A stretch of DNA of 64,000 nt from the NCBI GenBank assembly GCA_964587105.1, contig CAZPKG010000004.1, forward strand, positions 153,443-217,442, in the 5' to 3' direction. Position numbers and translations under genes: made by a program. This stretch comes from an uncultured Alphaproteobacteria bacterium (GTDB lineage Bacteria > Electryoneota > RPQS01). Shown here piece after piece: positions 9,020-34,975 of the stretch. The stretch's first letter is position 1. Each line of letters opens with the position of its first letter. A model generated the notes under the pieces. The model had not been told where the DNA came from, made no database searches, and saw nothing but the letters and a program-made list of their open reading frames with translations.

Positions 9020-9042
9020 GGGTGTTCCTAAGACCAAAACCC

Positions 9043-9738: not shown

Positions 9739-9779
9739 TCAACTGATTCGGGCTGGCGGTCGGACTTAACCTCACGCAT

Positions 9780-19345: not shown

Positions 19346-19533
19346 CGGTCTCGAAATGCAATTGGAATACAACACAAAGTATGTTTGTCATACATATATA
19401 ATAGTGAATTAACCTGTCTATTGCCATTGAAGATCAACCACAATCGCGAATTTGCGGGAGTAGATGACTTAGCAGATCAGGAGCTGAGCATTACTGACGC
19501 CAGACCAAGAGTCCTCCTTAGGAAAAATAATTA

Positions 19534-19675: not shown

Positions 19676-20107
19676 ATGTTGTTTTCCAATTCAGCAGCAT
19701 ACGCAGTCCGCGCGCTTGTCTGGTTGGCCCGGCAACCCAAAGACAGCCGGTGGCTGGCGACAGATGTAGCCCGCATGGAGGGAATTCCACAACCTTATCT
19801 CAGTAAGGTTCTCGGAGTTCTTTCTTCGCAGGGCTTCATCTCTTCGACTCGCGGACCGAAGGGAGGGTACGTCCTCGTGCAGGCGCCGGACACGATAACT
19901 CTGCTGAAGGTTTCAGAACTGTTCGACTCCGAAAAACGACTTACCTCATGCGTCTTTGCATACACCGCCTGTGGACATTGCGAACATTGTCCGTTTGGTG
20001 AACTCTGGAACGGCACGCGCGACTCGATTCGTCATTTCCTCGAATCTACAACCATTGAAGCGCTTGCACGAATCAATGGAATCAACGAACAGACCTGTAA
20101 TGGTTGA
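19676..20107 (+). CDS. Rrf2-family transcriptional regulator, first gene of the nar operon
   Basis: MLFSNSAAYAVRAL...PQPYLSKVL...STRGPKGGY; CVFAYTACGHCEHCPF. Confidence 0.9.
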   Translation: MLFSNSAAYAVRALVWLARQPKDSRWLATDVARMEGIPQPYLSKVLGVLSSQGFISSTRGPKGGYVLVQAPDTITLLKVSELFDSEKRLTSCVFAYTACGHCEHCPFGELWNGTRDSIRHFLESTTIEALARINGINEQTCNG

Positions 20108-21149: not shown

Positions 21150-21152
21150 CAG

Positions 21153-21674
21153 ATGTCAGAAAATGTGATCCACTCTGAACATCAAACAGTCAACGGCCGC
21201 ATCGTCGCAATCTCGACAAGCGTCAAGCGGGGAATACCCAAATCGAATCAGAATGAAGTCCGCCTGATCGAGAACTGGGGAATGGAAAACGACGTGCACG
21301 CAGGGAATTGGCACCGGCAAATCAGCATTTTGGCTATGGAAAGCGTCCAGAAAATGCGCGACAAAGGTGTGCCTGTCCGCCCGGGAGCCTTTGCCGAAAA
21401 CCTTACGACGGAGTTTATAGACATTCCCAATTTGAGCATCGGAACTCTCGTTACAATCGGCGAATCAGAGTTGGAAATCACCCAGATCGGCAAGGAATGT
21501 CACCAGAAATGCGCAATATACTATCGCGCCGGAGATTGTGTAATGCCGCGTGAGGGAATCTTTGCGATCGTGAAAAAAGGCGGCGTCATTAAAGTGGGGG
21601 ATCCAGTCGTCGTCCACCTAACCCCGTTTGACAAATCAGCAATTCAAATGAGTGTCAGCGAGGCTGTGTCATGA
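21153..21674 (+). CDS. MOSC-domain protein
   Basis: GMENDVHAGNWHRQISIL, GAFAENLTT, LEITQIGKECH, MPREGIFA. Confidence 0.85.
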   Translation: MSENVIHSEHQTVNGRIVAISTSVKRGIPKSNQNEVRLIENWGMENDVHAGNWHRQISILAMESVQKMRDKGVPVRPGAFAENLTTEFIDIPNLSIGTLVTIGESELEITQIGKECHQKCAIYYRAGDCVMPREGIFAIVKKGGVIKVGDPVVVHLTPFDKSAIQMSVSEAVS

Positions 21675-22453
21675 CAAGGATTGTGATCGCAACATTAATC
21701 ATTTGCTTTTGCACGTTGACTCACGCCCGCGCACAATCGAGCGACTCACTTGCGAGCGCGGACACGACGATGCAAATCGACGTCCCCGCACAGGCCTTTG
21801 CGCAAAAGTGCGCAGGCTGCCACACGGTCGGCGGAGGCAAGCTAACCGGGCCGGACCTGTTGCCGACACAAGCTTGGCCGAGGCAAGAGCTTGCGGCAAA
21901 AGTGAAACTGATGGAACAACGTGTCGGACCTCTTTCGTCCGATGAAATCACTCAATATGTCGAGTTGCTGCAAGATTCACGCGCACAAGACCGCATTCGT
22001 GTTGCGCAAGAACTCGCCAGTAAAGCCGTTGCCGCTACGCTTGAACCTGCCTCGGCGAAGATTGGCAGGAATCTATTCGAGGGTGTAACACCGCTCGCAA
22101 ACGGCGGCGTCGCATGTATTACTTGTCATCGTGCAGGATCCCAAGGTGGAACTCTCGGCCCCGATCTCAGCGCCTTACATTCGCGCATGGGAAAAGTGGC
22201 AATGACATCCGCCATTCAACAAACGAACTTTCCGGTAATGTCGGGAACATACAAAAATAAACCTGTAACCGCACAAGAAGCTGTGCACATTGCCGAATAT
22301 CTCACAAATCCCGAGCTAATGCCGGCGGCGAGCATCGCCGACAACGCTCCGATCTTCGGCGCCTCACTCGGAGTGCTTAGCTTAATAATTGTAGTCGGAC
22401 TTTATCGTAACCGCTCGCGCAGCGGCCTTGCGCGCCAACGAGGTGTAGCATGA
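21671..22453 (+). CDS. Membrane-anchored periplasmic diheme cytochrome c (positionally like Thermus NarC)
   Basis: Signal peptide; CAGCH and CITCH, each followed by GPDL; C-terminal TM helix; overlaps the narG start. Confidence 0.85.
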
Positions 22454-25400
22454 GTTGGATCACCGATCTCTTCGATCCCAAGCAGCGCGAATGGGAAGAT
22501 TTCTACCGTAACCGTTGGTCTTATGACAAGATCATCCGCAGCACGCACGGTGTAAACTGCACAGGTGGATGCAGTTGGAATATCTATGTCAAGAATGGCA
22601 TCGTCACGTGGGAAATGCAGGCGTTGGACTATCCGATTATCGACAAGGATATTCCGCCCTACGAGCCGCGCGGCTGTCAACGCGGCATTTCCTATTCGTG
22701 GTACATTTACAGCCCGATCCGCGTCAAGTACCCATATGTACGAGGCGTGCTGATTGACCTGTGGCGCGAAGCCAAACTGCAATTCCCTGATGACCCCGTC
22801 GGTGCATGGAACTCAATAGTTTCAAATCCCGAATCGCGCGCGAAGTATCATTCCGCACGCGGTAAAGGCGGACTGCGGCGCTTCAGTTGGGACGAAGCGC
22901 TTGAATTGCTTGCCGCTGCGAATATTCACACCGTGATGAAGCACGGCCCCGATCGCATTGCAGGCTTTTCTCCAATTCCCGCGATGTCTATGGTCAGCTA
23001 CGCTGCCGGAGCGCGCTTCATGCAGCTCATGGGCGGCGTATCGCTTTCATTCTATGATTGGTATTGCGACTTGCCTCCGGCGTCTCCCGAAATTTGGGGG
23101 GAGCAAACCGACGTGGCGGAGAGCGCCGATTGGTTCAAGTCAAACTTCATCGCGGTTGTCGGATCAAACGTCTTGATGACACGCACTCCCGACGCACACT
23201 TTCTGGTGGAAGCACGGCATCGCGGCGCGAAAGTCGTTGTGTTCTCACCGGACTTCTCGATGGTGTCAAAAGTTTCTGACGAGTGGGTTCCCATTCATCA
23301 AGGGCAGGACTCTGCGTTTTGGATGTCGGTTGGCCACACAATCTTGCGCGAGAACTATGTTGAGCGCACGGTTCCGTTCTTCGTGGATTATCAAAAGCAA
23401 TACACGGACGGCCCGATTCTGGTTGAATTGCACAAACAGGCCGACGGCACATTCAGGCCCGGGCAATATCTGCGCGCAGCGCAGGTTGAAGAAACCAAGA
23501 GTGTAGACAATGCGCAATGGAAATTCTTCATGCTTGACTCGAAGAGTGGTGAGCTACGCTTACCGCAAGGCACAATCGGTCATCGCTGGCAAAAGAAGAA
23601 GGGTCAATGGAATCTAAAGCTTGAAGATGAGCGGACGGGCAATGCATTTGATCCGCGTTTGATGCTCGATCCAGCGCAAGATGAAAAGATTACGGTGTCA
23701 TTGCCGGAGTTTTCCTCCGAGCAGGGAGACGATTGGGTAAAGACGACTGTTCCCGCACGCAAAATCAAGACTGTGAGCGGCGACGTCTATGTCACAACGG
23801 CATTTGAACTGCTCATTGCAAGATACGGTGTCAATCGAGATGCCGCACACCCGACCCCGTATGACGAGCCGGATCAAGCATATACTCCTGCATGGCAAGA
23901 GAAATTCACCGGAGTCTCCGGCGACGTCGTGCTGCAGTTTGCGCGCGAATGGGCAATGACCGCTGAAAAGAGCGGCGGAAAGTGCAGTGTAATCATCGGC
24001 GCGGGCGTGAATCACTGGTATCACAATAATCTGATCTATCGCTCAATCATCTCAAGTTTAATGCTTTGCGGATGTGTCGGGAAGAATGGCGGCGGATTAA
24101 ATCACTACGTCGGTCAAGAAAAACTTGTGCCGCAGACGTCGTGGGCGCCCATTGCGTTCGGCACGGATTGGTCTGCACCGCCACGGTTGCAGAATACTCC
24201 GTCTTTTCACTATGTAAACTCCGATCAATGGCGTTACGATTCCAAGTTCGACGACATTTGCCCTGTGGCCGATCGTTCTCACAGCATGGCTCACGGCCAC
24301 ACCATTGACAAACAAATTCAAGCCGTGCGATCCGGCTGGCTTCCTTCCTATCCGCAGTTTGATCAGTCATCATTGGAAGTTGCAAAAGAAGCGCGAAACA
24401 GTGGCGCGACAGATGAGGCAACGATAGTCAAGAACGTCGTCGAGAGATTAAAAGCGAAGAAACTGAAATTCGCCGTAGAAGATCCCGATTCACCGAAGTG
24501 CTTCCCGCGGCTGTTCTACATTTGGCGCGGCAACGCACTTCTCTCTTCTGCAAAGGGCCACGAGTATTTCCTGAAACACTACTTGGGCACGCATACAAAT
24601 CTGATTGCGAAAGAGCAGGCCAAAGAGCACGTCGAAGAAGTAACGTGGCATGACAAAGTCGAACTCGGAAAGATGGACCTCGTGGTTGACTTGAATTACC
24701 GCATGGATTCATCCGCCCTCTATTCCGACGTCATTCTTCCCGCCGCGACCTACTACGAAAAGAACGATCTGAACTCAACGGATATGCACAGCTTCATACA
24801 TCCGTTGCAAGCGGCGGTCCCTGCATGTTGGGAATCGAAGAGTGACTGGGATATCTTCCGTGAAGTAGCGAAAGTAACGTCTAAACTTGCCGAACGATAT
24901 CTTCCCGATCCCGTTGAAGACGTTGTAACGGCTCCGCTCGCGCACGACACTCCCGCCGAAATCGCGCAGCCATCCGTCAAGGACTGGTCAAAGGGTGAAT
25001 GTGAGGCTATTCCCGGCAAGACGATGCCAAACATAAAAGTTGTCAAGCGAGACTACAAGAATGTTATCAACAAATTTATCAGTCTCGGACCCAACTTCCG
25101 CAATGGCCTTGGGATGCACGGCGTGCAATTTGAAGTTGCCGACATGTACGACGCTTACATGGAAAATAATCCGACCGAGAAGTGGGGCGGAGGAGTTTAT
25201 CCTTCATTGCGGGAGGACGTACTCGTATGTGAAGCGATTCTGAATTTTGCGCCGGAGACGAACGGCGAATTGGCTTATAGGTCATACCAATCCGAAGCCA
25301 TACGCACGGGTATGGATCATTCACATTCCGCCGAGAAAACGCGCTCGATTCGGATCACATTCGATGATATCGCCGCGCAACCCCGCCGTATCCTCACGAC

Positions 25401-26073
25401 TCCTTTCTGGACTGGAATCACAAGCGACAACCGAACATACTCCGCCTACTGCCAAAACGTCGAAGGACTCGTCCCGTGGCGCACGCTAAGCGGCAGACAG
25501 CACTACTATCTTGATCACGAATCCTATATCGCATACGGCGAGAACCTTCCCACATATAAGCCACGCCCAGTTCGCGAAATTCTTGGCGATTTGTCGCAAT
25601 CCAAGCCCTCAGGCGGAACACTTGTGCTAAATTATCTAACGCCGCACGGCAAATGGTCCATTCACTCGACCTATGGTGACACGTTAAGAATGCGCACGCT
25701 CAGTCGCGGCCACGACCCGATTTGGATAAACGACAAAGACGCGTTGCTGTTAGGAGTGGAAGACAACGACTGGGTTGAAATCTTCAACGATCATGGAGTC
25801 GTGTGCACGGTCGCCAACGTCAGCGCGAGAATTCCTCGCGGCATGTGTTTCATCTATCACTCGCCTGAGCGCACACTCGGAATTCCCAAGTCGCCCGAAC
25901 GTGGCTACCGTCGCGCAGGCGGGCACAACAGTTTAACGCGCGCGCGCCTGAAGCCGCTCTTTATGATTGGCGGCTACGGCCAATTTACCTATGCCTTCAA
26001 CTACTGGGGCCCGCCCGGAGTAAACCGCGACACGTTTGTAGCCGTTAAGAAACTCGAAAAAGTAATCTGGTGA
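22450..26073 (+). CDS. narG: Respiratory nitrate reductase alpha subunit (cytoplasm-facing, no Tat signal)
   Basis: [16 protein letters not shown]0 motif, [40 protein letters not shown]. Confidence 0.97.
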
Positions 26074-26082
26074 AGGTGAACA

Positions 26083-27576
26083 ATGGACATTAGAGCACAA
26101 GTTTCCATGGTATTTCACCTCGACAAATGCATCGGTTGTCACACGTGCAGTGTAGCCTGCAAAAATGTGTGGACGGACAGACCGGGTGCTGAGTACATGT
26201 GGTGGAACAACGTCGAAACAAAACCCGGTACAGGATTCCCGCATCGCTGGGAAGATCAGGAACGCTACAAAGGCGGTTGGAAACTAAACGGCGGCAAAAA
26301 TCTTCAGCTGAAATCGCAGTCCAAGCTCGGCGGCCTCCTTAAGCTCTTCTACAACCCAAATCAACCCGGTCTGGAAGACTATTACGAACCGTGGACCTAC
26401 GAGTACGAGAATTTGTTTGATGCACCGGCCGGCGATGATCAACCGACCGCCAAACCGGTCTCGCAAATCACCGGCGATGAAATGAAGATTGAGCGCGGCC
26501 CCAATTGGGATGACGACCTCTCCGGTTCGCCGCTGTATGCCGCAAACGACGTCAACTACGATCAACTTACACCTGAAGAGCGGCAACAGTTGTTTGAAAT
26601 TCAGCGCGTCGCATTTATGTATCTTCCGCGCATTTGTAACCATTGCGCGAACCCGAGCTGCGTCGCCTCCTGTCCGTCAGGAGCGCTCTACAAACGAGGT
26701 GAAGATGGAATTGTTCTGATAAACCAGGATGTCTGCCGTGGTTGGCGCGCCTGCATTTCCGCCTGTCCCTACAAAAAAATATACTACAATTGGGTGACTG
26801 GAAAATCAGAGAAGTGCATACTCTGTTATCCTCGACTCGAAACCGGTCAGGCTCCCGCCTGTTTCCACTCGTGCGTAGGCCGGATTCGCTATCTTGGAGT
26901 GCTTCTTTACGACGCGGATCGAATTGAATCCGCAATGAAAACAGCCGACCCGATGCTGGTGGAAGCGCAGCGCGATGTAATCTGCGATCCCGAAGACGAG
27001 TCCGTAATCGCTTCGGCGCGCGCCAACGGAGTCAGTGATGAAATGATTGAAGCTGCGCGCAAATCTCCGGTTTACAAATATGTCGTTAAGTGGAAACTCG
27101 CCCTGCCCCTTCACATTGAATACCGGACAATGCCGATGCTGTTCTATGTGCCGCCGCTTCTGCCTGTGATGGGAAAAGACGGCGACCAGCCGTATGATCA
27201 TGCCGAAGACGCATTCTTTACTTCACTCGACAAGTCCCGGCTTTCAATTAAGTACATGGCGCGGCTGTTCAGCGCCGGAAATGAAACGGTAGTGACGGCG
27301 TCACTGAAAAAACTCATGGCTGTTCGCTACTTTATGCGCATGAAGGAAGTGGGAGACGTGAATGATGACCGCGTGCGCCGCATCATGCGCGAAGCAGGAA
27401 CGACGCCGGAAGAGGCGGAAGAAATCTACATGCTAACCGCAGTGCCGACTGTGCACAAACGCTATGTACTTCCGCCGCTCCAGCGTGAAGAAGCGATTGG
27501 CTCCATGTGCGACGTGCAGGATTGTAAAGGCAGCTGCGGCTTCGGCGCCACATCCGGCGCAGAGAGGAGCGTGTGA
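26083..27576 (+). CDS. narH: Respiratory nitrate reductase beta subunit
   Basis: CIGCHTCSVAC, CNHCANPSCVASC, CRGWRACISACPY, CILCYPR...PACFHSCVG. Confidence 0.97.
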   Translation: MDIRAQVSMVFHLDKCIGCHTCSVACKNVWTDRPGAEYMWWNNVETKPGTGFPHRWEDQERYKGGWKLNGGKNLQLKSQSKLGGLLKLFYNPNQPGLEDYYEPWTYEYENLFDAPAGDDQPTAKPVSQITGDEMKIERGPNWDDDLSGSPLYAANDVNYDQLTPEERQQLFEIQRVAFMYLPRICNHCANPSCVASCPSGALYKRGEDGIVLINQDVCRGWRACISACPYKKIYYNWVTGKSEKCILCYPRLETGQAPACFHSCVGRIRYLGVLLYDADRIESAMKTADPMLVEAQRDVICDPEDESVIASARANGVSDEMIEAARKSPVYKYVVKWKLALPLHIEYRTMPMLFYVPPLLPVMGKDGDQPYDHAEDAFFTSLDKSRLSIKYMARLFSAGNETVVTASLKKLMAVRYFMRMKEVGDVNDDRVRRIMREAGTTPEEAEEIYMLTAVPTVHKRYVLPPLQREEAIGSMCDVQDCKGSCGFGATSGAERSV

Positions 27577-28112
27577 TGTCCGCCAGAAATCTCAACCTTG
27601 TATGTGACGAACTTGCCACACTGCTGAGTTACCCGGATTCCAACTACTATTCAATGCTTCAAAAAGCAGTCGAGTCTCCTTCAAGCAGAAAATCCGCCAA
27701 AGCTCTGAGGACGTTTCAAGAGTCAATTGCAAATTTATCCGAATCTGAGTTGCAAGAATTCTATTCAAGCACGTTCGATCTCAACCCGCTCTGTTCGCCC
27801 GCGTTGAGCGTTCACTTGTTCGGCGTGGAGAGTTTCAAACGTTCGCATCTTATGGTAGGCCTGTTAGACATGTATCGAGCCGCCGATTTCCAAACCGTTG
27901 GAGAAACCGCAGATCATATGAGCACGGTCGTGCGCTTCCTGTCGCATTCTTCATCTGAAGAGCGAGAAGAAATCGCTCAGTTTATCCTATTGCCCGGTCT
28001 GACAAAAATCGCCGAATTTCTGGAGTCAAAGTCAAACTCATTCTCTCATCTGGTGAAAGCAGCCGCAATGATAGTGGCAGCCGAAACAGGGAAGGAGGCA
28101 AAATATGCTTGA
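27576..28112 (+). CDS. narJ: Nitrate reductase molybdenum cofactor assembly chaperone
   Basis: LLSYPD, YSSTFDL, ETADHMS; position between narH and narI. Confidence 0.85.
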   Translation: MSARNLNLVCDELATLLSYPDSNYYSMLQKAVESPSSRKSAKALRTFQESIANLSESELQEFYSSTFDLNPLCSPALSVHLFGVESFKRSHLMVGLLDMYRAADFQTVGETADHMSTVVRFLSHSSSEEREEIAQFILLPGLTKIAEFLESKSNSFSHLVKAAAMIVAAETGKEAKYA

Positions 28113-29421
28113 ACTGTTTGCATTTGTCGGTCTGCCCTATGCCGCGATCATCATCTGTATTGTCGGAATTGTGTGGCGCTTCCGCAATGACCGCTACGGA
28201 ATTTCATCGCTGTCGTCGCAATTCCTCGAAAGCAAGAAACTATTGTGGGGTTCTGCGCCGTGGCATATCGGTATTCTTGTGATCTTCCTCGGCCACTTCG
28301 TCGCATTCCTTATTCCGGGAGTATGGCAACGGTTGATGGCTGTGCCGATGCTGTTGGCCATTGCAGAAACGACCGGAATCGCTGCGTCGGTGCTGTGTCT
28401 GTTGGGATTGCTTGTACTCTTCTATCGCAGAGTGACTACAGGCAGACTTCAAAGATCAACAAATATCGGTGACTTCGTCGTAACAGCCTTGCTGTTGGCG
28501 CAAGTAGCTCTGGGCTTAATGGTTGCAGGCGGCTATCGCTGGGGAGCAAGCTGGTCAACCGGAACTCTTTCGCCTTATGTTTGGAGTTTGTTGACACTCA
28601 ATCCGGACGTATCGGTTATTCGCGACATGCCCGTTGTCATTCAAGCTCACGTTGTGGGCGCTTGGTTGATCTTACTGGTGTTTCCATTCACGCGCCTGAT
28701 TCACATGGTATCTGTGCCGATGCAATATCTCTTTCGCTCGCCACAGAAAGTTGTCTGGAACAACCCTCGGCGCAACAATCAAGCCGCCGCCGCGCGGGTT
28801 ACTCAAGAATCGCGCCGTCATTTCATAAAGGCCGCTGTCGGGCTTAGTGCTGCCGGTCTATTATTGTCAGTCGGCGTCCTCGATAAATTGGGCCGGTTCT
28901 TCCAAATGCCGGGATTGCACAACGATGAAGAAGCGAACTTGCTCGAAACCCGTTTACGCCGTTTGCAATTGACCGCAGAAGAGAAGGAACTTGAACTCGA
29001 ACGGCTTCGCAGTGATCACATCTACGTCGCGAAACTGTCCGAATTGAACAACTCCGTCGGAAAATACTTCATTGACTACTCAATGCGTCCCGGTCTTGCC
29101 TTTCGCTCGGACGATGGCTGGCCCATGCTGCTATCCGCGAAATGTACGCATTTGGGTTGCACCGTCGGAAATCAAGTTGATGCGAACGGAAAAATCCTCT
29201 GCCCGTGTCATGTCTCCTATTTTGACATCAAGACCGGAATTCCCAATGAAGGCGCTCCTGCCAAGGCGCCCCTTGACAGAATCGCGTGGGTGTTGAAGGA
29301 TGACCAAGGAAATGAAGTCGCTACAGAAAGCCCTCGTGGTTCACGCACCGGAAGAGTGGACCCAGCGTTGGCGGACGGATATTCTTTGTTTATCGTTAGA
29401 TCTTTGTCGGCGGAGGCGTAA
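28105..29421 (+). CDS. narI: NarI (nitrate reductase gamma subunit) fused to a twin-arginine TM anchor and a Rieske [2Fe-2S] domain
   Basis: NarI His pairs WHIGILVIFLGH and QAHVVGAW...FTRLIH; SRRHFIK at residues 236-242 (28810-28830) then a hydrophobic helix; CTHLGC (29143-29160) and CPCH (29200-29211) in one uninterrupted ORF. Confidence 0.92.
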   Translation: MLELFAFVGLPYAAIIICIVGIVWRFRNDRYGISSLSSQFLESKKLLWGSAPWHIGILVIFLGHFVAFLIPGVWQRLMAVPMLLAIAETTGIAASVLCLLGLLVLFYRRVTTGRLQRSTNIGDFVVTALLLAQVALGLMVAGGYRWGASWSTGTLSPYVWSLLTLNPDVSVIRDMPVVIQAHVVGAWLILLVFPFTRLIHMVSVPMQYLFRSPQKVVWNNPRRNNQAAAARVTQESRRHFIKAAVGLSAAGLLLSVGVLDKLGRFFQMPGLHNDEEANLLETRLRRLQLTAEEKELELERLRSDHIYVAKLSELNNSVGKYFIDYSMRPGLAFRSDDGWPMLLSAKCTHLGCTVGNQVDANGKILCPCHVSYFDIKTGIPNEGAPAKAPLDRIAWVLKDDQGNEVATESPRGSRTGRVDPALADGYSLFIVRSLSAEA

Positions 29422-30518
29422 TGAAACAGCCATTCGTCAATTCAGTGATTGATTTTCTCGCATCCCGCTTGCCATTCCACAAGCTCGATGTCAAGCACAT
29501 GATCACGGAAAAAGAGGTGCCGGTCCACCGCATGTCGTGGGGGTATTACATCGGTGGGCTTGCACTGTTTTTCTTTATCATCCAAGTGTTTACCGGGATG
29601 ATGCTCTTATTCTACTATGAACCAACCGTCAGTGAAGCGCATGAGTCGGTCGAGTACATCACTCATTTCGTGACGATGGGCGGTTTGATTCGGAATCTTC
29701 ACGCCTGGTCGGCTTCGTTCATGATCTTCTGTGTCATCGCTCATATGCTCAGCGCCTTAGCGATGAAGGCCTTTGCAAAGCCGCGGGAAGTAACGTGGAT
29801 CGCAGGCGTACTGCTATTGCTGATCACTTTTGGCTTCGGCTTCACCGGCTATCTGCTTCCGTGGAATCAAATAGCAGTTAACGCGACAAAAGTAGGCTTG
29901 GCGTCAATCGATCAGGTTGGTCAATATCTTCCTGCCGCGCTCTCGCATCTTGCCGAAGATGTGCGCATCACAATTCAAGGTGCGCCTGCCATCGGGCAGG
30001 CAACACTAAGCAGGTTTTTCGCGCTTCACGTTGTCATTCTCCCGCTGCTCGTCTTTGGCGTCATCGGTTTGCATGTGCTGTCGGTACAAATGCATGGAAT
30101 GAGTCCCGGCATCGAGGATAAACCTCGCCGTAAAGAAAAATTCTTTCCGTTCTTTATTCTCAAGGACTTCAAAGAATGGGGGATTGCTTTTCTTGTCTTG
30201 TTCATCATAGCGCTCTGTCTGCCGTTTGATTCGCTCTTTCCGTATCCGTTGCTTGAACCGTATAATGCATTAGGATCGACTCCCGACGGAATTAAACCGG
30301 AGTGGTACTTCTACTTCGTTTACTATCCGATGGAACTGTTGCCGTTCTGGATCATCATCATCGTGATGACCTGTGCAACGCTTGGACTGTTCGCAGCGCC
30401 GTGGATTTTCAAAGGGTCAAGCCACAAGACAATGCGGTGGATCGCGTCGGCAATCGCCGCCTATCTGATTACCATGACTCTTTTCGGCGAAAACATCTAT
30501 CACGCAATCAAGGGGTAA
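29421..30518 (+). CDS. Cytochrome b of a bc-type (Rieske/cytb) complex, with b and subunit IV fused
   Basis: RNLHAWSAS...IAH, FTGYLLPWNQ, RFFALHVV...GLH, Qo-site motif KPEWYF. Confidence 0.9.
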   Translation: MKQPFVNSVIDFLASRLPFHKLDVKHMITEKEVPVHRMSWGYYIGGLALFFFIIQVFTGMMLLFYYEPTVSEAHESVEYITHFVTMGGLIRNLHAWSASFMIFCVIAHMLSALAMKAFAKPREVTWIAGVLLLLITFGFGFTGYLLPWNQIAVNATKVGLASIDQVGQYLPAALSHLAEDVRITIQGAPAIGQATLSRFFALHVVILPLLVFGVIGLHVLSVQMHGMSPGIEDKPRRKEKFFPFFILKDFKEWGIAFLVLFIIALCLPFDSLFPYPLLEPYNALGSTPDGIKPEWYFYFVYYPMELLPFWIIIIVMTCATLGLFAAPWIFKGSSHKTMRWIASAIAAYLITMTLFGENIYHAIKG

Positions 30519-30524
30519 ACTGAG

Positions 30525-31112
30525 ATGCATCGTAAACTCCTTCTAATGCTGATGATCCTGATAGCGGGCCGGTGCTTTGCCTATCCTGAGTTTCAAAAAT
30601 TCTCGCAAACAAATTCAGGTCGCCCCATCAACTGCGCAATGTGCCATGCCAACGGTGACGGCCCCGAAGGCGTGTCCCGCGGACAAATCGGAAGTTTGAC
30701 GCCAAGCGAGTTAAATAGGCTCAACGCCGCACGCGGCGCGTTCGCGCCCGGAATGGTCGTGGAAAACCCGATTCTCAACGCATTCGGGAATAACATTATT
30801 CATACGATCGGCAAAACGAAATTCCTTGAACTTCGCGCCCATCCTGAGCTTTTAGCGGATGTGTACGGGTTTCAAAGTGATTTGGACGAGGACGGAATTC
30901 CTGACGCCCGTGAATACTTGGAGGGCACACACCCTCTGAATAACGTACATGGTAACCCGCTCCGACTCTTTCTGCACAATCTGAATTTTTACAAACTCCA
31001 CGTAATCCTTACCGTTCTGGCCACGATTGCAGGCTTCTACGGTTTTAGTCATTTGCTGCACGGATTCGCCTCCGGCGCATCCGCGAAATTACCCCAAGAA
31101 CGAACATCCTAA
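30525..31112 (+). CDS. Membrane-anchored monoheme cytochrome c-like protein
   Basis: Signal peptide, CAMCH, DLDEDGIPDAREY Ca-binding-like motif, C-terminal TM helix. Confidence 0.7.
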   Translation: MHRKLLLMLMILIAGRCFAYPEFQKFSQTNSGRPINCAMCHANGDGPEGVSRGQIGSLTPSELNRLNAARGAFAPGMVVENPILNAFGNNIIHTIGKTKFLELRAHPELLADVYGFQSDLDEDGIPDAREYLEGTHPLNNVHGNPLRLFLHNLNFYKLHVILTVLATIAGFYGFSHLLHGFASGASAKLPQERTS

Positions 31113-31130: not shown

Positions 31131-32651
31131 ATGCAAGATCGCAGACGCGCAATTCAAGTTCTGGTATTGAACACATTGGCATTTACCATCTGCTTCGCCG
31201 GATGGATGATGAACGGTGTGTTGATTACCTACCTTGTGGACAATGATATTTTCCGCTGGGACAAAGCCCAGATGGGTTGGTTAATCGGCATCCCCGTGTT
31301 AACCGGATCACTCATGCGATTGCCGGTCGGCGTGCTTACCGACAAGTACGGTGGCAGAAGAGTCTATACAATTCTGATGTTGGTCTCTGCGATTCCGATG
31401 TTCATGACCGGTTTCGCAAGTGAATACTATCAATTTGTATTTGCAAGCTTGGGATTCGGGCTGACCGGCGCCGCATTCGCCGTCGGGATAGCCTACACGT
31501 CGGTGTGGTTCCCCAAAGAGCGGCAAGGGACTGCGTTAGGGATTTTCGGTGTCGGAAATGCCGGTTCGGCCTTGACAAGCATGGGAGCGCCGTTCGTATT
31601 GAAGTGGTTGACCGACAACGGAGCGAATGTCGAAGGCTGGAGAACGCTTCCAAAAATCTACGCCGCCGCATTGGTAGCCATGTCGCTGATTTTCTACTTT
31701 CTGACCTACGAAAAAAAGATCGAACACTCCGCCGGACTCACGCTTCGGCAGCGCCTCGAACCATTGAAGTATGTGCGCGTCTGGCGGTTTGGGCTTTACT
31801 ATTTTCTTGTGTTCGGAGCGTTCGTGGCCTTGGCGCAGTGGTTGATTCCCTACTATGTAAACGTCTATACCATGAGCGTCGCCTCAGCGGGACTCATGGC
31901 TTCAATTTTCAGCTTGCCGTCTGGTTTGATTCGCGCTCTCGGAGGATGGATGTCCGACAAGTTCGGAGCTCGGCGGGTGATGTATTGGGTATTAGGGTCA
32001 TGCTTGGTGGGGTGCGCGCTGCTTTGTGTTCCACGTATGGATATTGAATCGCCCGGTTCAGGTGTTACGGCTGCACGAGCGGGAATCGTAACATTTGTAT
32101 CAGATACGTTGATTCGAGTCGATCAACGCGAGTATAAGACTCGCCCGGAGCCAGCCTCATGGCGGCAAAATCAAGACAACGCATTTCTCGTTTTTCCATC
32201 CGGAGAGTTTTGGCATAAGCCCGTCGTGAAAGAGGGCGACAAGGTCGTTAAGAAGCAACTACTCGCGCGCGGCGTCACACACCTCTTCTTTCAAGCCAAT
32301 ATCTGGATCTTCACCTTCTTAGTATTCATTGTCGGAATTATGATGGGAATCGGCAAAGCGGCAGTGTACCGGCACATCCCGGACTACTACCCCGAGCAGA
32401 TTGGCGTCGTTGGTGGAATCGTCGGCGTCGTCGGCGGCTTAGGTGGATTCTTCTGCCCGATTCTGTTTGGGTACATGCTCAAGTGGACGGGAATTTGGAC
32501 GACTCTCTGGATATTCCTCGGCGCTTTGTCATTCGTGTGTTTGATTTGGATGCATTTTGTCATCCAGAAGATGATGCATAAGAACGCGCCGACTTTGATG
32601 CGTCACATTGAAGATCGACACGATCACCCAATCGAAACCCATCCCGCCTAA
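31131..32651 (+). CDS. narK: NarK1-type nitrate/nitrite MFS transporter with an inserted soluble domain
   Basis: GSLMRLPVGVLTDKYGGRRV, QGTALGIFGVGN, GMGIGKAAVY-like nitrate signature, GGLGGFF. Confidence 0.9.
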   Translation: MQDRRRAIQVLVLNTLAFTICFAGWMMNGVLITYLVDNDIFRWDKAQMGWLIGIPVLTGSLMRLPVGVLTDKYGGRRVYTILMLVSAIPMFMTGFASEYYQFVFASLGFGLTGAAFAVGIAYTSVWFPKERQGTALGIFGVGNAGSALTSMGAPFVLKWLTDNGANVEGWRTLPKIYAAALVAMSLIFYFLTYEKKIEHSAGLTLRQRLEPLKYVRVWRFGLYYFLVFGAFVALAQWLIPYYVNVYTMSVASAGLMASIFSLPSGLIRALGGWMSDKFGARRVMYWVLGSCLVGCALLCVPRMDIESPGSGVTAARAGIVTFVSDTLIRVDQREYKTRPEPASWRQNQDNAFLVFPSGEFWHKPVVKEGDKVVKKQLLARGVTHLFFQANIWIFTFLVFIVGIMMGIGKAAVYRHIPDYYPEQIGVVGGIVGVVGGLGGFFCPILFGYMLKWTGIWTTLWIFLGALSFVCLIWMHFVIQKMMHKNAPTLMRHIEDRHDHPIETHPA

Positions 32652-32675
32652 ACTAAACCGGAAACGGATAAGCAC

Positions 32676-34241
32676 ATGGCTCAAACATTAGTTCGTTGGA
32701 ACGTTGAAGACGATTCGTTTTGGGAAGGCGAAGGCAAGCGCACGGCCTACCGGAATCTTTGGATTTCGATACCCTGCCTTCTGTGCGGATTTGCGGTCTG
32801 GATGTATTGGTCAATTATCACGACAAAGATGCAGGAACTCGGATTCCAATTCGACCCGGACCCGGCCAAGAACAAAGCGATGCTCTACACGTTGATCTCG
32901 ATTGCCGGATTGACTGGCGCGACGCTGCGTATTCCAAATTCCTTCTTCGTGGCCTTAAGCGGAGGGCGAAACGTAATTGCAGTTACGACCGCCTTGCTCA
33001 TTTTGCCCGCGCTCGGTCTTGGCATGGCGCTTCATGCTCCCGGCACGTCGTACTCAACATTTGTTATTCTGTCGGCGCTGTCAGGAATCGGCGGCGGCGC
33101 CTTCGCTTCGTCGATGTCAAATATTAGTTTGTTCTTTCCTAAACGTGTTCAAGGCACTGCCCTGGGACTTAATGCCGGCTTAGGAAATCTCGGCGTCAGT
33201 GTCATGCAAGTTCTCTTGCCGTTCGTAATGACCTTTGGCATGTTTGGAGCATTTGGAGGGAGTGCATGGAAAACTGCCGCCGCAGTCGGCGCGCAGCCTG
33301 CAGGAACACAAGTATGGATTCAGAACGGGGGTTTTGTGTGGGTGCCGATCCTTGCAGTCCTTTCGATTCTTGCCTGGTTGCTCATGAACAATCTTGCCAT
33401 GCACGAAGTGGGCTCGTCTTCTTCGGCCATTGCCAAAATGCTCTATCTCACGCTACTCGGGTTTGCCGGATCGGCTCTGGGCTTATATCTTCTCGTGGCT
33501 CTCAAAGTAAACATGTGGATAGTCCTGCCGATCACGATCCTGATGACGCTCGCACTGATTCGTTACCTCGCGCCGGGTAAAATTCGGCAGAATTTGAGTA
33601 ATCAATTCGCGATCTTCAAAGAAAAGCATAACTGGGTAATGACTTGGCTCTACGTGATGACATTTGGCTCGTTCATCGGGTATTCCGCCGCGTTTCCCAA
33701 ACTTATCCAAGACGTGTTTGGTTCGCTTCCCGACGGCACGGCCAATCCGCACGCTCCTAATCCATTCGCATACGCCTGGCTCGGGCCGTTAGTTGGTTCG
33801 CTCATTCGCCCTGTCGGTGGTTGGCTGTCTGATAAGTTCGGTGGTGCGCGTGTCACACAATGGGACACGGTGATTATGATTGCCGCCGCACTCGGTGTTG
33901 CTTACAACATCAAGGCTGCCAGCAGTTCTCCGACTCCTGAAGCGTTCTTTGTCCCGTTCCTGTTGCTCTTTCTCCTCCTGTTTATTACAACAGGCATCGG
34001 TAACGGATCAACGTTCCGCATGATTCCCATAATCTTTGACTCCAAACTTGCCGGACCTGTGCTCGGTTGGACGTCGGCGATTGCGGCCTACGGCGCGTTT
34101 ATCATCCCCAAAGTATTCGGTGCTCAAATTCAAGCCGGACATCCCGAATACGCACTCTACGGATTTGCGCTTTACTATGTAAGCTGCCTGATCGTAAATT
34201 GGTGGTTCTATGCTCGCAAGAACGCCGAAATCAAGTGCTGA
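32676..34241 (+). CDS. narK: NarK2/NarU-type nitrate/nitrite MFS transporter
   Basis: WNVEDDSFW, RNLWISIP, GGGAFASSMSNISLFFPK, YVMTFGSFIG, GIGNGSTFRMIP. Confidence 0.92.
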   Translation: MAQTLVRWNVEDDSFWEGEGKRTAYRNLWISIPCLLCGFAVWMYWSIITTKMQELGFQFDPDPAKNKAMLYTLISIAGLTGATLRIPNSFFVALSGGRNVIAVTTALLILPALGLGMALHAPGTSYSTFVILSALSGIGGGAFASSMSNISLFFPKRVQGTALGLNAGLGNLGVSVMQVLLPFVMTFGMFGAFGGSAWKTAAAVGAQPAGTQVWIQNGGFVWVPILAVLSILAWLLMNNLAMHEVGSSSSAIAKMLYLTLLGFAGSALGLYLLVALKVNMWIVLPITILMTLALIRYLAPGKIRQNLSNQFAIFKEKHNWVMTWLYVMTFGSFIGYSAAFPKLIQDVFGSLPDGTANPHAPNPFAYAWLGPLVGSLIRPVGGWLSDKFGGARVTQWDTVIMIAAALGVAYNIKAASSSPTPEAFFVPFLLLFLLLFITTGIGNGSTFRMIPIIFDSKLAGPVLGWTSAIAAYGAFIIPKVFGAQIQAGHPEYALYGFALYYVSCLIVNWWFYARKNAEIKC

Positions 34242-34273: not shown

Positions 34274-34975
34274 ATGAGTATTTCACTTGAAACTCCTGTC
34301 GGCCAATTGGTCGTCGAAAAACCCAACCGCGCACACATCTTTCAGCGCTTTCAAATTGACTACTGCTGCGGCGGAGCGCAGCCACTGAGAGAGGCCTGCG
34401 CGTCAAAGAACGTGGATCCGCAAATTATCCTTGCAGAGATTTCAAATCAAGACGGCCGTGCAGATGTCAGCACGGAACCTGATTGGTCTAAGGCAACGAT
34501 GTCGGCGCTTGTCGAGAATATTCTGAATCAGCACCACGAATATCTCCGGAACGCGCTTCCGCATCTCGGCGAAATGGCGGAGAAGGTTTATCGTGTGCAT
34601 GGTGAGAACCATCCTGAACTGCTTACGATTCTGCAAGTCTTCTCCGGGCTGTTTCAGGAATTAGATTCGCACATGTATAAGGAAGAGAACATTTTGTTCC
34701 CAGCCATCAAGCGTATTGAGCAGGGATCGCTTCCCCGCGAAGCCGGAGCACAGCTGTTCGGCCCGGTCAGTGTCATGGAAGCTGAACACGAATCGGCGGG
34801 CAATGCTCTTAAACGGCTTCGTGAGTTGACCAACAATTATTCCCCACCCGATGGGGCTTGCAATACGTATCGTGGCCTATTCGCAGGTCTTGAGGAGCTT
34901 GAGCGCGACCTTCACTGGCACATTCACAAAGAGAACAATATCTTGTTCCCAAGAGCACTTGCCGGCGCCAATTGA
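34274..34975 (+). CDS. ric: Iron-sulfur cluster repair di-iron protein (Ric/YtfE/ScdA)
   Basis: IDYCCGG, HHEYLR, HMYKEENILFP, ACNTYR, HIHKENNILFP. Confidence 0.95.
   Translation: MSISLETPVGQLVVEKPNRAHIFQRFQIDYCCGGAQPLREACASKNVDPQIILAEISNQDGRADVSTEPDWSKATMSALVENILNQHHEYLRNALPHLGEMAEKVYRVHGENHPELLTILQVFSGLFQELDSHMYKEENILFPAIKRIEQGSLPREAGAQLFGPVSVMEAEHESAGNALKRLRELTNNYSPPDGACNTYRGLFAGLEELERDLHWHIHKENNILFPRALAGAN

What the first reader, a model, noticed from the sequence alone, without database searches (positions are those of the whole stretch)
28105..29421. NarI-Rieske fusion has the hallmarks of a dual Sec/Tat-inserted membrane protein
Seen: after the NarI domain, S-R-R-H-F-I-K (28810-28830) closely matches the Tat consensus SRRxFLK. 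It is followed by a hydrophobic helix with no obvious cleavage site, a charged coiled-coil-like stalk (EEANLLETRLRRLQLTAEEKELELERLR) and the Rieske domain. Established: NarI has five TM helices with a cytoplasmic C-terminus, and polytopic actinobacterial Rieske proteins insert an odd number of helices by Sec, then hand a twin-arginine final helix and folded Fe-S domain to Tat. Inference: this is a further class of Sec/Tat hybrid substrate in which the Sec-inserted part is itself a diheme b redox subunit.
Basis: partly seen in the sequence, partly recalled or inferred. Interest (0 to 1): 0.8.

Follow-up and report, generated by a model that had tools for sequence, protein, structure and literature searches.

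The report
NarI–Rieske fusion, likely Sec/Tat-inserted
One gene joins the membrane anchor of a respiratory nitrate reductase to the iron-sulfur subunit of a cytochrome bc-type complex; its conserved twin-arginine helix suggests membrane insertion by two export machines, and the fusion ties two respiratory enzymes usually treated as separate in bacteria.

Summary
ORF 28105-29421 (438 aa) is a complete NarI domain with five helices and all four haem histidines. It is followed by a cytoplasmic linker, S-R-R-H-F-I-K, a sixth weakly hydrophobic helix, a 30-residue helical stalk and a bc-type Rieske domain.

RR is present in 193 of 194 distinct full-length homologues; the exception has KR. Loop charges fit an N-out/C-in NarI. 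Helix 6 is the least hydrophobic helix in 81 of 120 homologues and is followed by conserved K/R. The closest stand-alone Rieske proteins (49-51% identity) carry the same RR-helix-stalk at their N-terminus. The internal motif is therefore a retained Tat signal-anchor.

Dual Sec/Tat insertion is well supported in silico but untested experimentally. It would be a new family of a known class (Tooke 2017), and that class already includes a haem-b example, Sco3746.

The larger point is the gene context. All 80 retrieved loci, all from metagenome-assembled genomes (MAGs) labelled as many different phyla, show the same order wherever the contig reaches. That order is narC-like dihaem c, narG, narH, narJ, narI::Rieske, cytochrome b, then a novel monohaem c. 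This predicts a hard-wired Nar–Rieske/cytochrome b supercomplex. I found no paper describing it.

The parts
21671..22453 (+). NarC-like membrane-anchored dihaem cytochrome c (260 aa). It has a signal peptide, CAGCH and CITCH motifs and a C-terminal helix, and overlaps the narG start by 4 nt.
   Evidence: Pfam Cytochrom_C/CBB3. The only plasmid-database hits are Thermus NarC genes upstream of narG (32% identity, E 7e-8). Found in 58 of the 80 loci; in 56 of them it ends within about 1.1 kb upstream of narG on the same strand, and narG is off the contig in the other two.
22450..26073 (+). narG, catalytic subunit of the cytoplasmic type, with no twin-arginine leader
   Evidence: TIGR01580 scores 1513 bits against a cut-off of 1084; the match starts at profile position 27.
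26083..27576 (+). narH, iron-sulfur subunit
   Evidence: Identified here only by similarity and position: 51-96% identical reading frames lie between narG and narJ in the related loci, and the same position in the Thermus operon is annotated narH. The window protein itself was not scanned against a family library.
27573..28112 (+). narJ chaperone
   Evidence: Pfam Nitrate_red_del, E 1e-10.
28105..29421 (+). Whole narI::Rieske fusion ORF (438 aa)
   Evidence: The top 120 database homologues all carry both Pfam domains and nearly all are about 438 aa (range 422-479).
28117..28758 (+). NarI domain, aa 5-218. Five helices at about 5-23, 55-73, 89-107, 124-142 and 177-195. Haem ligands are H54, H64, H182 and H200.
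   Evidence: Aligns with E. coli NarI residues 4-220, with H56/H66/H187/H205 matched. Foldseek TM-score 0.82 to 1Q16 chain C. The four histidines are invariant in 121 sequences.
28759..28809 (+). Cytoplasmic linker, aa 219-235: variable, basic, low model confidence
   Evidence: pLDDT 53-60. Loop 5-6 carries a mean of 7.7 K+R.
28810..28830 (+). Twin-arginine motif S-R-R-H-F-I-K (aa 236-242)
28828..28884 (+). Helix 6 (aa 242-260), rich in Ala/Gly/Ser. Predicted to be the uncleaved Tat-dependent anchor.
   Evidence: Kyte-Doolittle 1.93. It is the least favourable of the six helices in 81 of 120 homologues. It lies within the AF2 helix 221-267.
28885..28920 (+). Post-helix segment with conserved basic residues and the F-F-x-G-P turn. 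Basic residues: K261 in 110/120, R264 in 61/120, K/R267 in 67/120, R270 in 55/120.
28921..29010 (+). Amphipathic helical stalk (aa 273-302) with the conserved L-E-L-E-R motif
   Evidence: AF2 helix 273-302. R300 is invariant, and E297, L298 and E299 are at least 90% conserved. The stalk is also present in the stand-alone relatives.
29017..29397 (+). Rieske [2Fe-2S] domain (aa 305-431). The cluster boxes are C347-T-H-L-G-C352 (29143-29160) and C366-P-C-H369 (29200-29211).
   Evidence: Pfam Rieske. pLDDT is about 90. All six Cys/His residues are invariant. The best PDB sequence matches are bc/b6f-type Rieske proteins.
29421..30518 (+). Cytochrome b (365 aa): b6-like N-terminal part fused to a subunit-IV-like part, with PEWY present
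   Evidence: Pfam Cytochrome_B plus Cytochrom_B_C. Best PDB match is cytochrome b6, E 6e-44. Follows the fusion gene in 75 of the 80 loci; in the other five the contig ends within about 0.1 kb after it.
30525..31112 (+). Monohaem c-type cytochrome of unknown family (195 aa): signal peptide, CAMCH, C-terminal anchor
   Evidence: No Pfam, NCBIfam or PDB match. A single CxxCH is present in all 69 homologues extracted from the loci. Follows cytochrome b in 70 of the 75 loci that have cytochrome b; in the other five the contig ends at or just after cytochrome b.
31131..34241 (+). Two NarK-type MFS nitrate/nitrite transporters (31131-32651 and 32676-34241)
   Evidence: Pfam MFS_1 for the first gene. 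The second was not scanned against a family library; it is called NarK-like from its position and from similar reading frames in the related loci. Same position as narK/narT in Thermus.

Best explanation
The gene encodes one polypeptide made of a full NarI dihaem cytochrome b and a full, Tat-anchored Rieske subunit of a Rieske/cytochrome b complex.

Most likely biogenesis:
1. The five NarI helices are inserted co-translationally by SRP/Sec-YidC, with the N-terminus outside and the C-terminus inside. This is inferred from homology to E. coli NarI and from the charge distribution.
2. Helix 6 is too weakly hydrophobic, and is flanked by too many basic residues, to be inserted by Sec. It stays on the cytoplasmic side while the Rieske domain folds and receives its 2Fe-2S cluster. 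This step is inferred.
3. TatBC then recognises the internal S-R-R-x-F-L-K. The Tat system moves the stalk and the folded Rieske domain across the membrane and leaves helix 6 as an uncleaved anchor. This is inferred from motif conservation and from the established Tat dependence of Rieske proteins.

Functionally, the covalent link ties a Thermus-type NarCGHI nitrate reductase to the cytochrome b and monohaem c encoded immediately downstream, giving a fixed Nar-bc supercomplex.

The most likely electron path, which is inference only, is as follows. Quinol is oxidised at the Qo site of cytochrome b. The electron then passes through the Rieske cluster, the c-type haems (the 195-aa cytochrome and the NarC-like cytochrome), the distal and proximal haems of NarI, NarH and finally NarG. 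The second electron recycles through the b haems (Q cycle). That would translocate 4 charges per 2 electrons, against 2 for an ordinary NarGHI redox loop.
For: Architecture and domains.

Topology:
- Six hydrophobic segments.
- Mean K+R is 0, 0.7 and 1.5 in the N-terminus and loops 2-3 and 4-5.
- Mean K+R is 4.6, 3.1 and 7.7 in loops 1-2, 3-4 and 5-6.

Tat motif:
- RR in 193/194 sequences plus one KR.
- Consensus ESRRxFLKG.
- 9e-5 chance by shuffling.
- Pfam TAT_signal at E<=0.01 in 8 of 29 members.

Sec-release features defined experimentally by Tooke et al. (PMC5449189):
- Helix 6 is the least hydrophobic helix in 81/120 homologues.
- K261 is present in 110/120, with further K/R at 264, 267 and 270.

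Homology of the internal motif to an N-terminal signal-anchor: stand-alone Rieske proteins P0123, P0124 and P0129 (224-229 aa; 49-51% identity for the two compared by BLASTP) start with a short n-region. This is followed by RR, the helix, the same stalk and the Rieske domain. All three sit directly upstream of a 369-370-aa cytochrome b; for the two whose DNA could be read it is 57-59% identical. P0123 also has a c195 homologue downstream.

Periplasmic location: the disulfide cysteines C352 and C368 are invariant, and the partner cytochrome b has an intact PEWY Qo motif.

Module:
- The order narC-like, narG, narH, narJ, fusion, cytB, c195 is kept in all 80 loci as far as each contig reaches.
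- The NarC-like and NarI parts are closest to Thermus NarC and NarI.
- Thermus NarC interacts with NarI (PMC7694296).

Hint that NarI no longer oxidises quinol itself: the E. coli Q-site Lys86 is K in Pseudomonas and R in Thermus. At the equivalent column it is K/R in 0 of 121 family members.

Precedents for Nar depending on a bc complex: Streptomyces Nar1 (PMC7931247) and the haloarchaeal Rieske/cytb-Nar clusters (PMC3509893).
Against: - No experiment of any kind supports the model. In the top 80 genomes every carrier is an uncultured MAG.
- In the window protein, helix 6 (summed scale value 2.77) is no less hydrophobic than helix 5 (2.87).
- The K/R after helix 6 and the stalk also occur in the stand-alone Rieske relatives. 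They are ancestral features, not evidence of a special hand-over mechanism.
- The Pfam TAT_signal hit is below the gathering score.
- Domain arrangement in the model is uncertain (pTM 0.50). Coordinates could not be inspected.
- The electron path is not constrained by any data. In E. coli the NarI haem potentials are lower than typical Rieske or cytochrome c potentials (my own knowledge), so the last step may be uphill. The NarC-like cytochrome may instead be an exit towards periplasmic reductases, as proposed for Thermus.
- The Lys86 comparison rests on only four canonical NarI sequences.
- Presence of tat genes in the carrier genomes was not checked.
Confidence: 0.7

Rival explanations
1. 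The twin-arginine motif is only an evolutionary remnant or a positive-inside topology signal. Helix 6 is inserted by Sec/YidC like the other five, and Tat plays no part.
For: Helix 6 of the window protein scores about the same as helices 2 and 5 on the crude scale. Basic residues before a helix are ordinary topology determinants. The Pfam TAT_signal match is sub-threshold.
Against: - Both arginines are invariant at about 50% overall identity, never KK. The single exception is KR, a variant I recall as functional in chloroplast Rieske proteins.
- The flanking S, F, L and K positions of the Tat consensus are conserved too. A mere charge signal would not require this.
- A Rieske domain threaded unfolded through Sec would have to acquire its Fe-S cluster outside the cytoplasm. 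That contradicts established knowledge of Rieske biogenesis: Paracoccus, Legionella, chloroplast and Streptomyces Rieske proteins are all Tat-dependent (cited in PMC5449189 and PMC10924467).
Confidence: 0.1
2. The fusion is a precursor. It is cut in the variable cytoplasmic linker, giving an ordinary NarI and an ordinary single-helix Tat-dependent Rieske protein. The mature complexes would then not be covalently tied together.
For: The linker (aa 217-236) is the least conserved and least confident part of the protein. The stand-alone relatives show that the Rieske part is functional as a separate protein.
Against: - No protease site or conserved cleavage motif is visible.
- The fusion is maintained with nearly constant length in hundreds of lineages. 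A simple stop and start between the genes would achieve the same outcome.
- There is no internal in-frame ATG or GTG before the RR in the window gene.
- Even if cleaved, the Rieske part would first be tethered to a Sec-inserted domain.
Confidence: 0.1
3. Helix 6 does not span the membrane and the Rieske domain stays in the cytoplasm. There it would act as a Rieske-type ferredoxin feeding NarH/NarG or another cytoplasmic partner.
For: Foldseek also matches the domain to small soluble Rieske ferredoxins. Cytoplasmic Rieske proteins such as NirD/NasG exist in nitrate metabolism.
Against: - A 19-residue uncharged segment is conserved after RR.
- The disulfide cysteines typical of bc-type Rieske proteins are invariant.
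- The best sequence matches are bc/b6f Rieske subunits.
- A cytochrome b gene with an intact Qo motif follows the fusion in 75 of the 80 loci and in all three stand-alone relatives; the other five contigs end just after the fusion gene.
Confidence: 0.03
4. The module runs in reverse as a nitrite oxidoreductase. Electrons from nitrite would pass from the NarG-like subunit through NarI and the c haems or Rieske cluster. They would then be pushed uphill into the quinone pool through the bc part (reverse electron flow). Alternatively, the c haems serve mainly as a branch point to periplasmic nitrite, NO or N2O reductases.
For: Nitrobacter NXR has a narC-like gene cluster similar to that of Thermus. 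Thermus NarC is proposed to pass electrons to periplasmic reductases (PMC7694296).
Against: - NarG scores as an equivalog of respiratory narG.
- Two NarK-type transporters, an Rrf2 regulator and a RIC/ScdA repair protein flank the operon, as expected for nitrate respiration.
- To my knowledge the carrier lineages (Verrucomicrobia, Obscuribacterales, Hydrogenedentota and others) are not known as nitrite oxidisers.
- This rival concerns the direction of electron flow only. It does not affect the Sec/Tat reading.
Confidence: 0.12

Closest known systems
Actinobacterial polytopic Rieske proteins (S. coelicolor Sco2149/QcrA; Keller 2012, Tooke 2017, PMC5449189)
   Same: The exported cargo is a Rieske Fe-S domain. 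A twin-arginine motif lies internally, directly before the last helix. That helix is weakly hydrophobic and followed by basic residues. The earlier helices are Sec-dependent.
   Different: In those proteins, two (or four) extra helices with no cofactor precede the motif, and the protein is N-in. Here five helices form a complete, cofactor-binding NarI, the protein is N-out, and there are six helices in all. The Rieske subfamily also differs, with a long helical stalk.
Sco3746 family (haem b-MoCo protein), the MLMS-1 polyferredoxin and the YkuE-like N-out proteins (Tooke 2017)
   Same: These are polytopic redox proteins with a conserved RR before the final helix and a cofactor domain outside. 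Sco3746 already has a Sec-inserted part predicted to bind two b haems. The YkuE-like family is a predicted N-out precedent.
   Different: The membrane domains and cargo domains are unrelated. NarI is not mentioned in that paper. None of those families links two respiratory complexes.
Thermus thermophilus NarCGHI (narCGHJIKT operon; PMC7694296)
   Same: The gene order is identical apart from the insertion. The window's 260-aa dihaem cytochrome and its NarI domain find Thermus NarC and NarI as their best plasmid-database matches. Glu88 is shared with Thermus NarI.
   Different: Thermus NarI is a stand-alone protein of 225 aa. Its operon has no Rieske, cytochrome b or monohaem c gene. Thermus keeps a basic residue at the E. 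coli Lys86 position.
Haloarchaeal Rieske/cytb-Nar gene clusters (PMC3509893)
   Same: Nitrate reductase genes sit in one cluster with Rieske and cytochrome b genes, and the proposal is that the bc-type complex feeds the reductase.
   Different: The haloarchaeal NarGH faces outward and has no NarI, the Rieske subunit is a separate protein, and electrons need not re-cross the membrane. [quoted passage not shown]
Streptomyces coelicolor Nar1 with the bcc-aa3 supercomplex (PMC7931247)
   Same: A cytoplasmic-type NarGHI depends in vivo on a bc-type complex and co-purifies with it.
   Different: That association is non-covalent and the genes are unlinked. No fusion is involved.

Membership tests
Dual Sec/Tat-integrated polytopic membrane proteins (Keller 2012; Tooke 2017) | Several N-terminal transmembrane helices without a Tat motif, inserted by Sec | tested here: met
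   Five helices homologous to E. coli NarI. Sec dependence itself is inferred.
Dual Sec/Tat-integrated polytopic membrane proteins (Keller 2012; Tooke 2017) | Conserved twin-arginine consensus on the cytoplasmic side, directly before the final helix | tested here: met
   SRRHFIK at aa 236-242. RR in 193/194 homologues plus one KR. The preceding loop carries 7.7 K+R on average.
Dual Sec/Tat-integrated polytopic membrane proteins (Keller 2012; Tooke 2017) | Final helix of relatively low hydrophobicity | tested here: inconclusive
   Met at family level: least favourable helix in 81/120 homologues, median 4.1 against -1.6 to 2.9 for the others. In the window protein helix 6 (2.77) is about equal to helix 5 (2.87). 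The scale is crude.
Dual Sec/Tat-integrated polytopic membrane proteins (Keller 2012; Tooke 2017) | Positive charges just C-terminal of the final helix | tested here: met
   K261 in 110/120, R264 in 61/120, K/R267 in 67/120, R270 in 55/120. The same feature is present in the stand-alone relatives.
Dual Sec/Tat-integrated polytopic membrane proteins (Keller 2012; Tooke 2017) | Cofactor-containing globular domain C-terminal to the final helix, located outside the cytoplasm | tested here: met
   The Rieske domain is present. The outside location is inferred from topology, the disulfide cysteines and the Qo-site partner.
Dual Sec/Tat-integrated polytopic membrane proteins (Keller 2012; Tooke 2017) | Export of the C-terminal domain requires Tat and is abolished by RR->KK | not testable with these tools
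   Needs reporter fusions in tat+ and tat- strains.
Rieske subunit of Rieske/cytochrome b complexes | CxHxGC...CxCH cluster boxes including the two disulfide cysteines | tested here: met
   C347, H349, C352, C366, C368 and H369 are invariant in 121 sequences.
Rieske subunit of Rieske/cytochrome b complexes | Membrane anchor helix with a twin-arginine signal, and an adjacent cytochrome b gene | tested here: met
   Helix 6 and the RR motif. The cytochrome b gene starts at the fusion's stop codon and follows the fusion in 75 of the 80 loci; the other five contigs end there.
NarI, respiratory nitrate reductase gamma subunit (TIGR00351 / PF02665) | Score above the curated cut-off, five helices and four haem-ligating histidines | tested here: met
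   125 bits against 105.55. H54, H64, H182 and H200 align with E. coli H56, H66, H187 and H205.
NarI, respiratory nitrate reductase gamma subunit (TIGR00351 / PF02665) | Quinol-site lysine (E. coli Lys86; the K86A mutant structure is 1Y5I) | tested here: not met
   The equivalent column is A/V/L/F/I, with K/R in 0 of 121 sequences. The comparison set is only four canonical NarI sequences, so how general this feature is remains uncertain.
Thermus-type NarCGHI | Membrane-anchored dihaem cytochrome c gene directly upstream of narG | tested here: met
   ORF 21671-22453 has two CxxCH motifs and a C-terminal helix, and is homologous to Thermus NarC.

The most novel reading that the evidence does not exclude
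The seven-gene module encodes an obligate quinol:nitrate oxidoreductase supercomplex. The fused Rieske subunit ties a Q-cycle-running cytochrome b to NarI. Electrons return across the membrane through the NarI haems to cytoplasmic NarGH. Nitrate respiration would then conserve twice the energy of the textbook NarGHI redox loop: 4 charges per 2 electrons instead of 2. The module appears in MAGs labelled as many uncultured phyla, and it includes a c-type cytochrome of a fold not seen before.
Probability: 0.35. Interest if true: 0.85.

Novelty: new variant of a known kind. Interest (0 to 1): 0.6.

Why it matters
**For protein targeting.** This would add a large, phylogenetically broad family to the few known membrane proteins that need both Sec and Tat. 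It has the largest Sec-inserted part so far (five helices, N-out) and a cofactor-loaded partner domain on each side of the hand-over point.

It also offers a natural experiment. The same RR-helix works as an N-terminal signal-anchor in the stand-alone relatives and as an internal one in the fusions.

**For bioenergetics.** It challenges the statement that bacterial cytoplasmic Nar bypasses the Rieske/cytochrome b complex. It makes a doubled coupling efficiency of nitrate respiration directly testable.

The carriers include Verrucomicrobia, Obscuribacterales, Hydrogenedentota, Planctomycetota and Acidobacteriota from soils, groundwater and wastewater. The module may therefore matter for how nitrate reduction is modelled in those habitats. 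At present it is annotated only as 'nitrate reductase subunit gamma' plus hypothetical proteins.

Tried and rejected
**Literature**
- Nine full-text searches found no description of a NarI-Rieske fusion.
- One of them, on NarI Lys86, returned only naringenin papers and was wasted.

**Ideas dropped after testing**
- Stalk as spacer: I first thought the 30-residue stalk was a spacer evolved to bridge NarI and the Qo site. The stand-alone Rieske relatives have the same stalk.
- Charges as adaptation: I first read the K/R after helix 6 as an adaptation to Sec release. They are equally present in the stand-alone proteins.
- c195 as a cytochrome f relative: I considered this because of the shared Y-P-x-F N-terminus before CxxCH. 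The confident model is all-alpha and matches nothing in the PDB, so only the idea of N-terminal amino-group ligation remains.
- Assembly or frameshift artefact: all 80 independent loci encode the same fusion.
- Recent horizontal island: GC content is flat at about 51%.

**Searches that added little**
- Rfam found nothing.
- A plasmid search found no fused form.

**Not attempted or not possible**
- I did not search for tat genes. None turned up among the 28 large flanking ORFs of the window that I scanned against Pfam; most of its ORFs shorter than 150 aa were not scanned.
- The hydrophobicity scale values came from memory.
Full report
**What is at the coordinates.** ORF 28105-29421 (+) encodes 438 residues. 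Its ATG overlaps the stop of narJ, and its TAA overlaps the ATG of the next gene.
- Pfam finds Nitrate_red_gam over aa 5-218 (E 1e-63) and Rieske over aa 307-388 (E 1.5e-6).
- Pfam also gives a sub-threshold TAT_signal hit over aa 236-253 (17.6 bits; gathering score 22.7).
- NCBIfam TIGR00351 (narI equivalog) scores 125 bits, above its cut-off of 105.55.
- The strict motif [ST]RRxF[LIVM]K occurs in 18 of 200,000 shuffles of the protein. It occurs nowhere else in the six-frame translation of the window.

**The NarI part is complete.**
- It aligns with E. coli NarI residues 4-220 of 225.
- H54, H64, H182 and H200 lie on the haem ligands H56, H66, H187 and H205.
- An AlphaFold2 model built from 121 sequences has mean pLDDT 85 (pTM 0.50). 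Its N-terminal half superposes on NarI of 1Q16 with TM-score 0.82.
- A hydropathy scan gives six segments: 5-23, 55-73, 89-107, 124-142, 177-195 and about 242-260.
- Across 120 homologues, mean K+R is 0, 0.7 and 1.5 in the N-terminus and loops 2-3 and 4-5.
- The corresponding means are 4.6, 3.1 and 7.7 in loops 1-2, 3-4 and 5-6.
- That is the N-out/C-in topology of E. coli NarI. It puts the RR motif in the cytoplasm and everything after helix 6 outside.

**The Rieske part is of the bc type.**
- The boxes C347-T-H-L-G-C352 and C366-P-C-H369 are invariant in 121 sequences. They include the two cysteines that form the disulfide in bc-type Rieske proteins.
- The best sequence matches among solved structures are Rieske subunits of anammox, Thermus, b6f and bc1 complexes.
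- The model shows one long helix over 221-267 (linker plus helix 6) and a second helix over 273-302. A well-predicted beta domain covers 305-431.

**Conservation of the twin arginine.**
- A search of 5.8 billion proteins returned 664 hits. The top 120 all carry both domains, and nearly all are about 438 aa (range 422-479).
- In 194 distinct full-length sequences (database hits plus genomic loci), RR is present in 193 and KR in one.
- The surrounding consensus is E-S-R-R-x-F-L-K-G-A. It is followed by an Ala/Gly/Ser-rich stretch and then D/E-K.
- Eight of 29 diverse members reach E<=0.01 against the short Pfam TAT_signal model.

**Comparison with the known dual Sec/Tat class.**
- Tooke et al. 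(PMC5449189) showed experimentally that two features make Sec release the last helix for Tat. These are low hydrophobicity of that helix and positive charges after it.
- They listed these families: actinobacterial Rieske (3 or 5 helices), Sco3746 (5 helices, predicted to bind two b haems, MoCo cargo), a polyferredoxin (5 helices) and YkuE-like proteins (4 helices, N-out).
- NarI does not appear in the paper.
- On a crude hydrophobicity sum, helix 6 is the least favourable helix in 81 of 120 family members. In the window protein it merely equals helix 5.
- K261 (110/120), R264, K/R267 and R270 follow the helix.
Actinobacterial Rieske proteins insert an even number of helices by Sec, not an odd number. 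A Sec-inserted haem-b part already exists in Sco3746.

**Origin of the internal motif.** I searched 1.84 billion cluster representatives with aa 225-438.
- Only 15 clusters scored below E 1e-30.
- They include fusions of 423-441 aa and three stand-alone proteins of 224-229 aa (P0123, P0124, P0129).
- The stand-alone proteins start with a short polar n-region. RR, the same helix, the same stalk and the Rieske domain follow. The two I could compare by BLASTP are 49-51% identical to the window protein.
- P0123 is found on at least 24 contigs, up to 222 kb.
- P0123 sits in a cluster with cytochrome c genes, the Rieske gene, a 370-aa cytochrome b (59% identical) and a 190-aa homologue of the window's monohaem cytochrome (43%). 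No nar genes lie in the 16.7 kb examined.
- P0124 and P0129 are likewise followed by a 369-370-aa cytochrome b.
- The internal RR-helix of the fusion is therefore homologous to an ordinary N-terminal Tat signal-anchor.
- The stalk and the post-helix charges are ancestral to this Rieske subfamily. They are not adaptations to the fusion.

**Gene context.**
It reported 565 confirmed relatives, but only those 80 were examined for the fusion. All 80 are MAGs.
- They are labelled Verrucomicrobiota, Obscuribacterales/Melainabacteria, Hydrogenedentota, Planctomycetota, Acidobacteriota, Sumerlaeota, Omnitrophota, Bacteroidota, Myxococcales and others.
- In every locus, as far as the contig reaches, the order is narG-narH-narJ-fusion-cytochrome b-195-aa cytochrome c.
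- 58 loci also have a homologue of the window's 260-aa dihaem cytochrome c. In 56 of them it ends within about 1.1 kb upstream of narG on the same strand.
- That dihaem protein's only matches in the plasmid collection are Thermus NarC genes (32% identity, E 7e-8). The best plasmid NarI matches are also from Thermus.
- The Thermus operon reads narC-narG-narH-narJ-narI-narK-narT.
- So the window's operon is a Thermus-type narCGHJI-KK operon. A Rieske/cytochrome b/monohaem-c unit has been inserted after narI, and its first gene has fused to narI.
- An Rrf2 regulator, moaA, a MOSC gene and a RIC/ScdA gene flank it.

**How it probably works.**
- Shown: the architecture, its conservation, and the homology of each part.
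- Inferred, biogenesis: Sec inserts helices 1-5. The Rieske domain folds and receives its cluster in the cytoplasm. Tat then exports the stalk and domain and leaves helix 6 as an anchor.
- Inferred, assembly: a Rieske head must dock on the Qo site of cytochrome b, and it is covalently tied to NarI. The mature assembly must therefore be a Nar-bc supercomplex.
- Favoured electron path: Qo, Rieske, c haems, NarI distal haem, NarI proximal haem, NarH, NarG, with a Q cycle in cytochrome b.
- By standard bookkeeping this moves 4 charges per 2 electrons instead of 2.
- With menaquinol (about -74 mV) and nitrate/nitrite (about +420 mV) the roughly 0.49 V span can pay for this. These potentials are my own knowledge.
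- One hint fits this path. The Q-site Lys86 of E. coli NarI is K in Pseudomonas and R in Thermus. It is K/R in 0 of 121 family members.
- Precedents exist. Thermus NarC binds NarI and exchanges electrons with periplasmic partners. Streptomyces Nar1 depends on and co-purifies with bcc-aa3. Haloarchaea link outward-facing Nar to a Rieske/cytb complex.
[quoted passage not shown] This module contradicts that statement.

**Rivals.**
- A vestigial RR with Sec-only insertion is unlikely. Both arginines and the flanking consensus are conserved, and the Fe-S cargo has to fold in the cytoplasm.
- Cleavage in the linker cannot be excluded.
- A cytoplasmic Rieske domain conflicts with the disulfide cysteines, the hydrophobic helix and the cytochrome b partner.
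- Reverse operation as a nitrite oxidoreductase, or use of the c haems mainly as an exit to other reductases, remains possible. Neither affects the targeting question.

**Novelty and verdict.**
- Nine full-text searches found no description of the fusion or the module.
- Databases call the protein 'respiratory nitrate reductase subunit gamma' and its c-type partner 'hypothetical protein'.
- The targeting claim is a new family of a known class, well supported in silico.
- The module is a new variant of known Nar and bc systems, with a testable and potentially important energetic consequence.

Noticed in passing
window 30525-31112 (+): The 195-aa monohaem cytochrome c has no Pfam, NCBIfam or PDB sequence match and is 'hypothetical' in nearly every source that names it (one calls it cytochrome c553). 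A confident model (pLDDT 90.8, all-alpha) has no Foldseek match in the PDB at E<=0.001. The predicted signal-peptidase site (A-x-A) is followed by a near-invariant Y-P-E-F-Q in 40 of 43 homologues, always exactly 17 residues before the invariant CxxCH. No other His or Met is conserved. The N-terminal amino group may therefore be the sixth haem ligand, as in cytochrome f.
   Followed up: partly
window 21671-22453 (+): A 260-aa dihaem cytochrome c with a C-terminal anchor overlaps the narG start. It is homologous to Thermus NarC. A homologue is present in 58 related loci, in 56 of them ending within about 1.1 kb upstream of narG. NarC is described as absent from nar operons of mesophiles (PMC7694296).
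   Followed up: partly
L084 7541-10356; L087 7576-9793: Stand-alone versions of the Rieske/cytochrome b unit exist, with the 190-aa cytochrome c as well in L084. No nar genes lie within the stretches examined. The Rieske protein carries the RR-helix-stalk at its N-terminus. In L084 the unit is preceded by two small monohaem cytochromes c and a 460-aa protein of unknown family.
   Followed up: partly
window 28351-28371 (aa 83-89 of the fusion): The E. coli NarI quinol-site Lys86 corresponds to a hydrophobic residue in all 121 family members. Glu88 is invariant and is also Glu in Thermus NarI, but Met or Val in E. coli, Pseudomonas and Nocardia.
   Followed up: partly
window 29421-30518 (+): The cytochrome b is b6-like, with 14 residues between the helix-D histidines. 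It is fused to a subunit-IV-like part with PEWY. It has Tyr where cytochrome b6 has the Cys that binds haem ci.
   Followed up: partly
window 22450-26073 (+): NarG starts at position 27 of the TIGR01580 profile. The N-terminal leader, which in E. coli NarG is the vestigial twin-arginine peptide bound by NarJ (my own knowledge), is largely missing.
   Followed up: no
L033 (CAZEQP010000041.1), fusion gene 9001-10302: This is the only homologue with K-R instead of R-R (ESKRHFLRAF) before helix 6.
   Followed up: no
window 18881-19375 (-), 19956-21674 (+), 34274-34975 (+): The operon is flanked by a divergent Rrf2-family regulator, moaA plus a MOSC-domain gene, and a RIC/ScdA hemerythrin-type iron-centre repair protein. 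This fits nitrate respiration with nitrosative stress control.
   Followed up: no
window 35508-37139 (-): Next to kdpABC lies a 543-aa protein with a KdpD sensor domain, a Usp domain and a C-terminal PTS EIIA-2 domain in place of a histidine kinase.
   Followed up: no
window 13745-18745 (+) and 7391-8893 (+): A 1666-aa C25 (gingipain-type) peptidase and an esterase both end in type IX secretion sorting domains. This fits the Calditrichota-like relatives found for the nar genes.
   Followed up: no
window 53943-56393 (-): An 816-aa protein carries a Peptidase_S74 (endosialidase/tail-fibre chaperone) domain. Several neighbouring ORFs have no family match. This may be a phage-derived or surface-fibre gene.
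   Followed up: no
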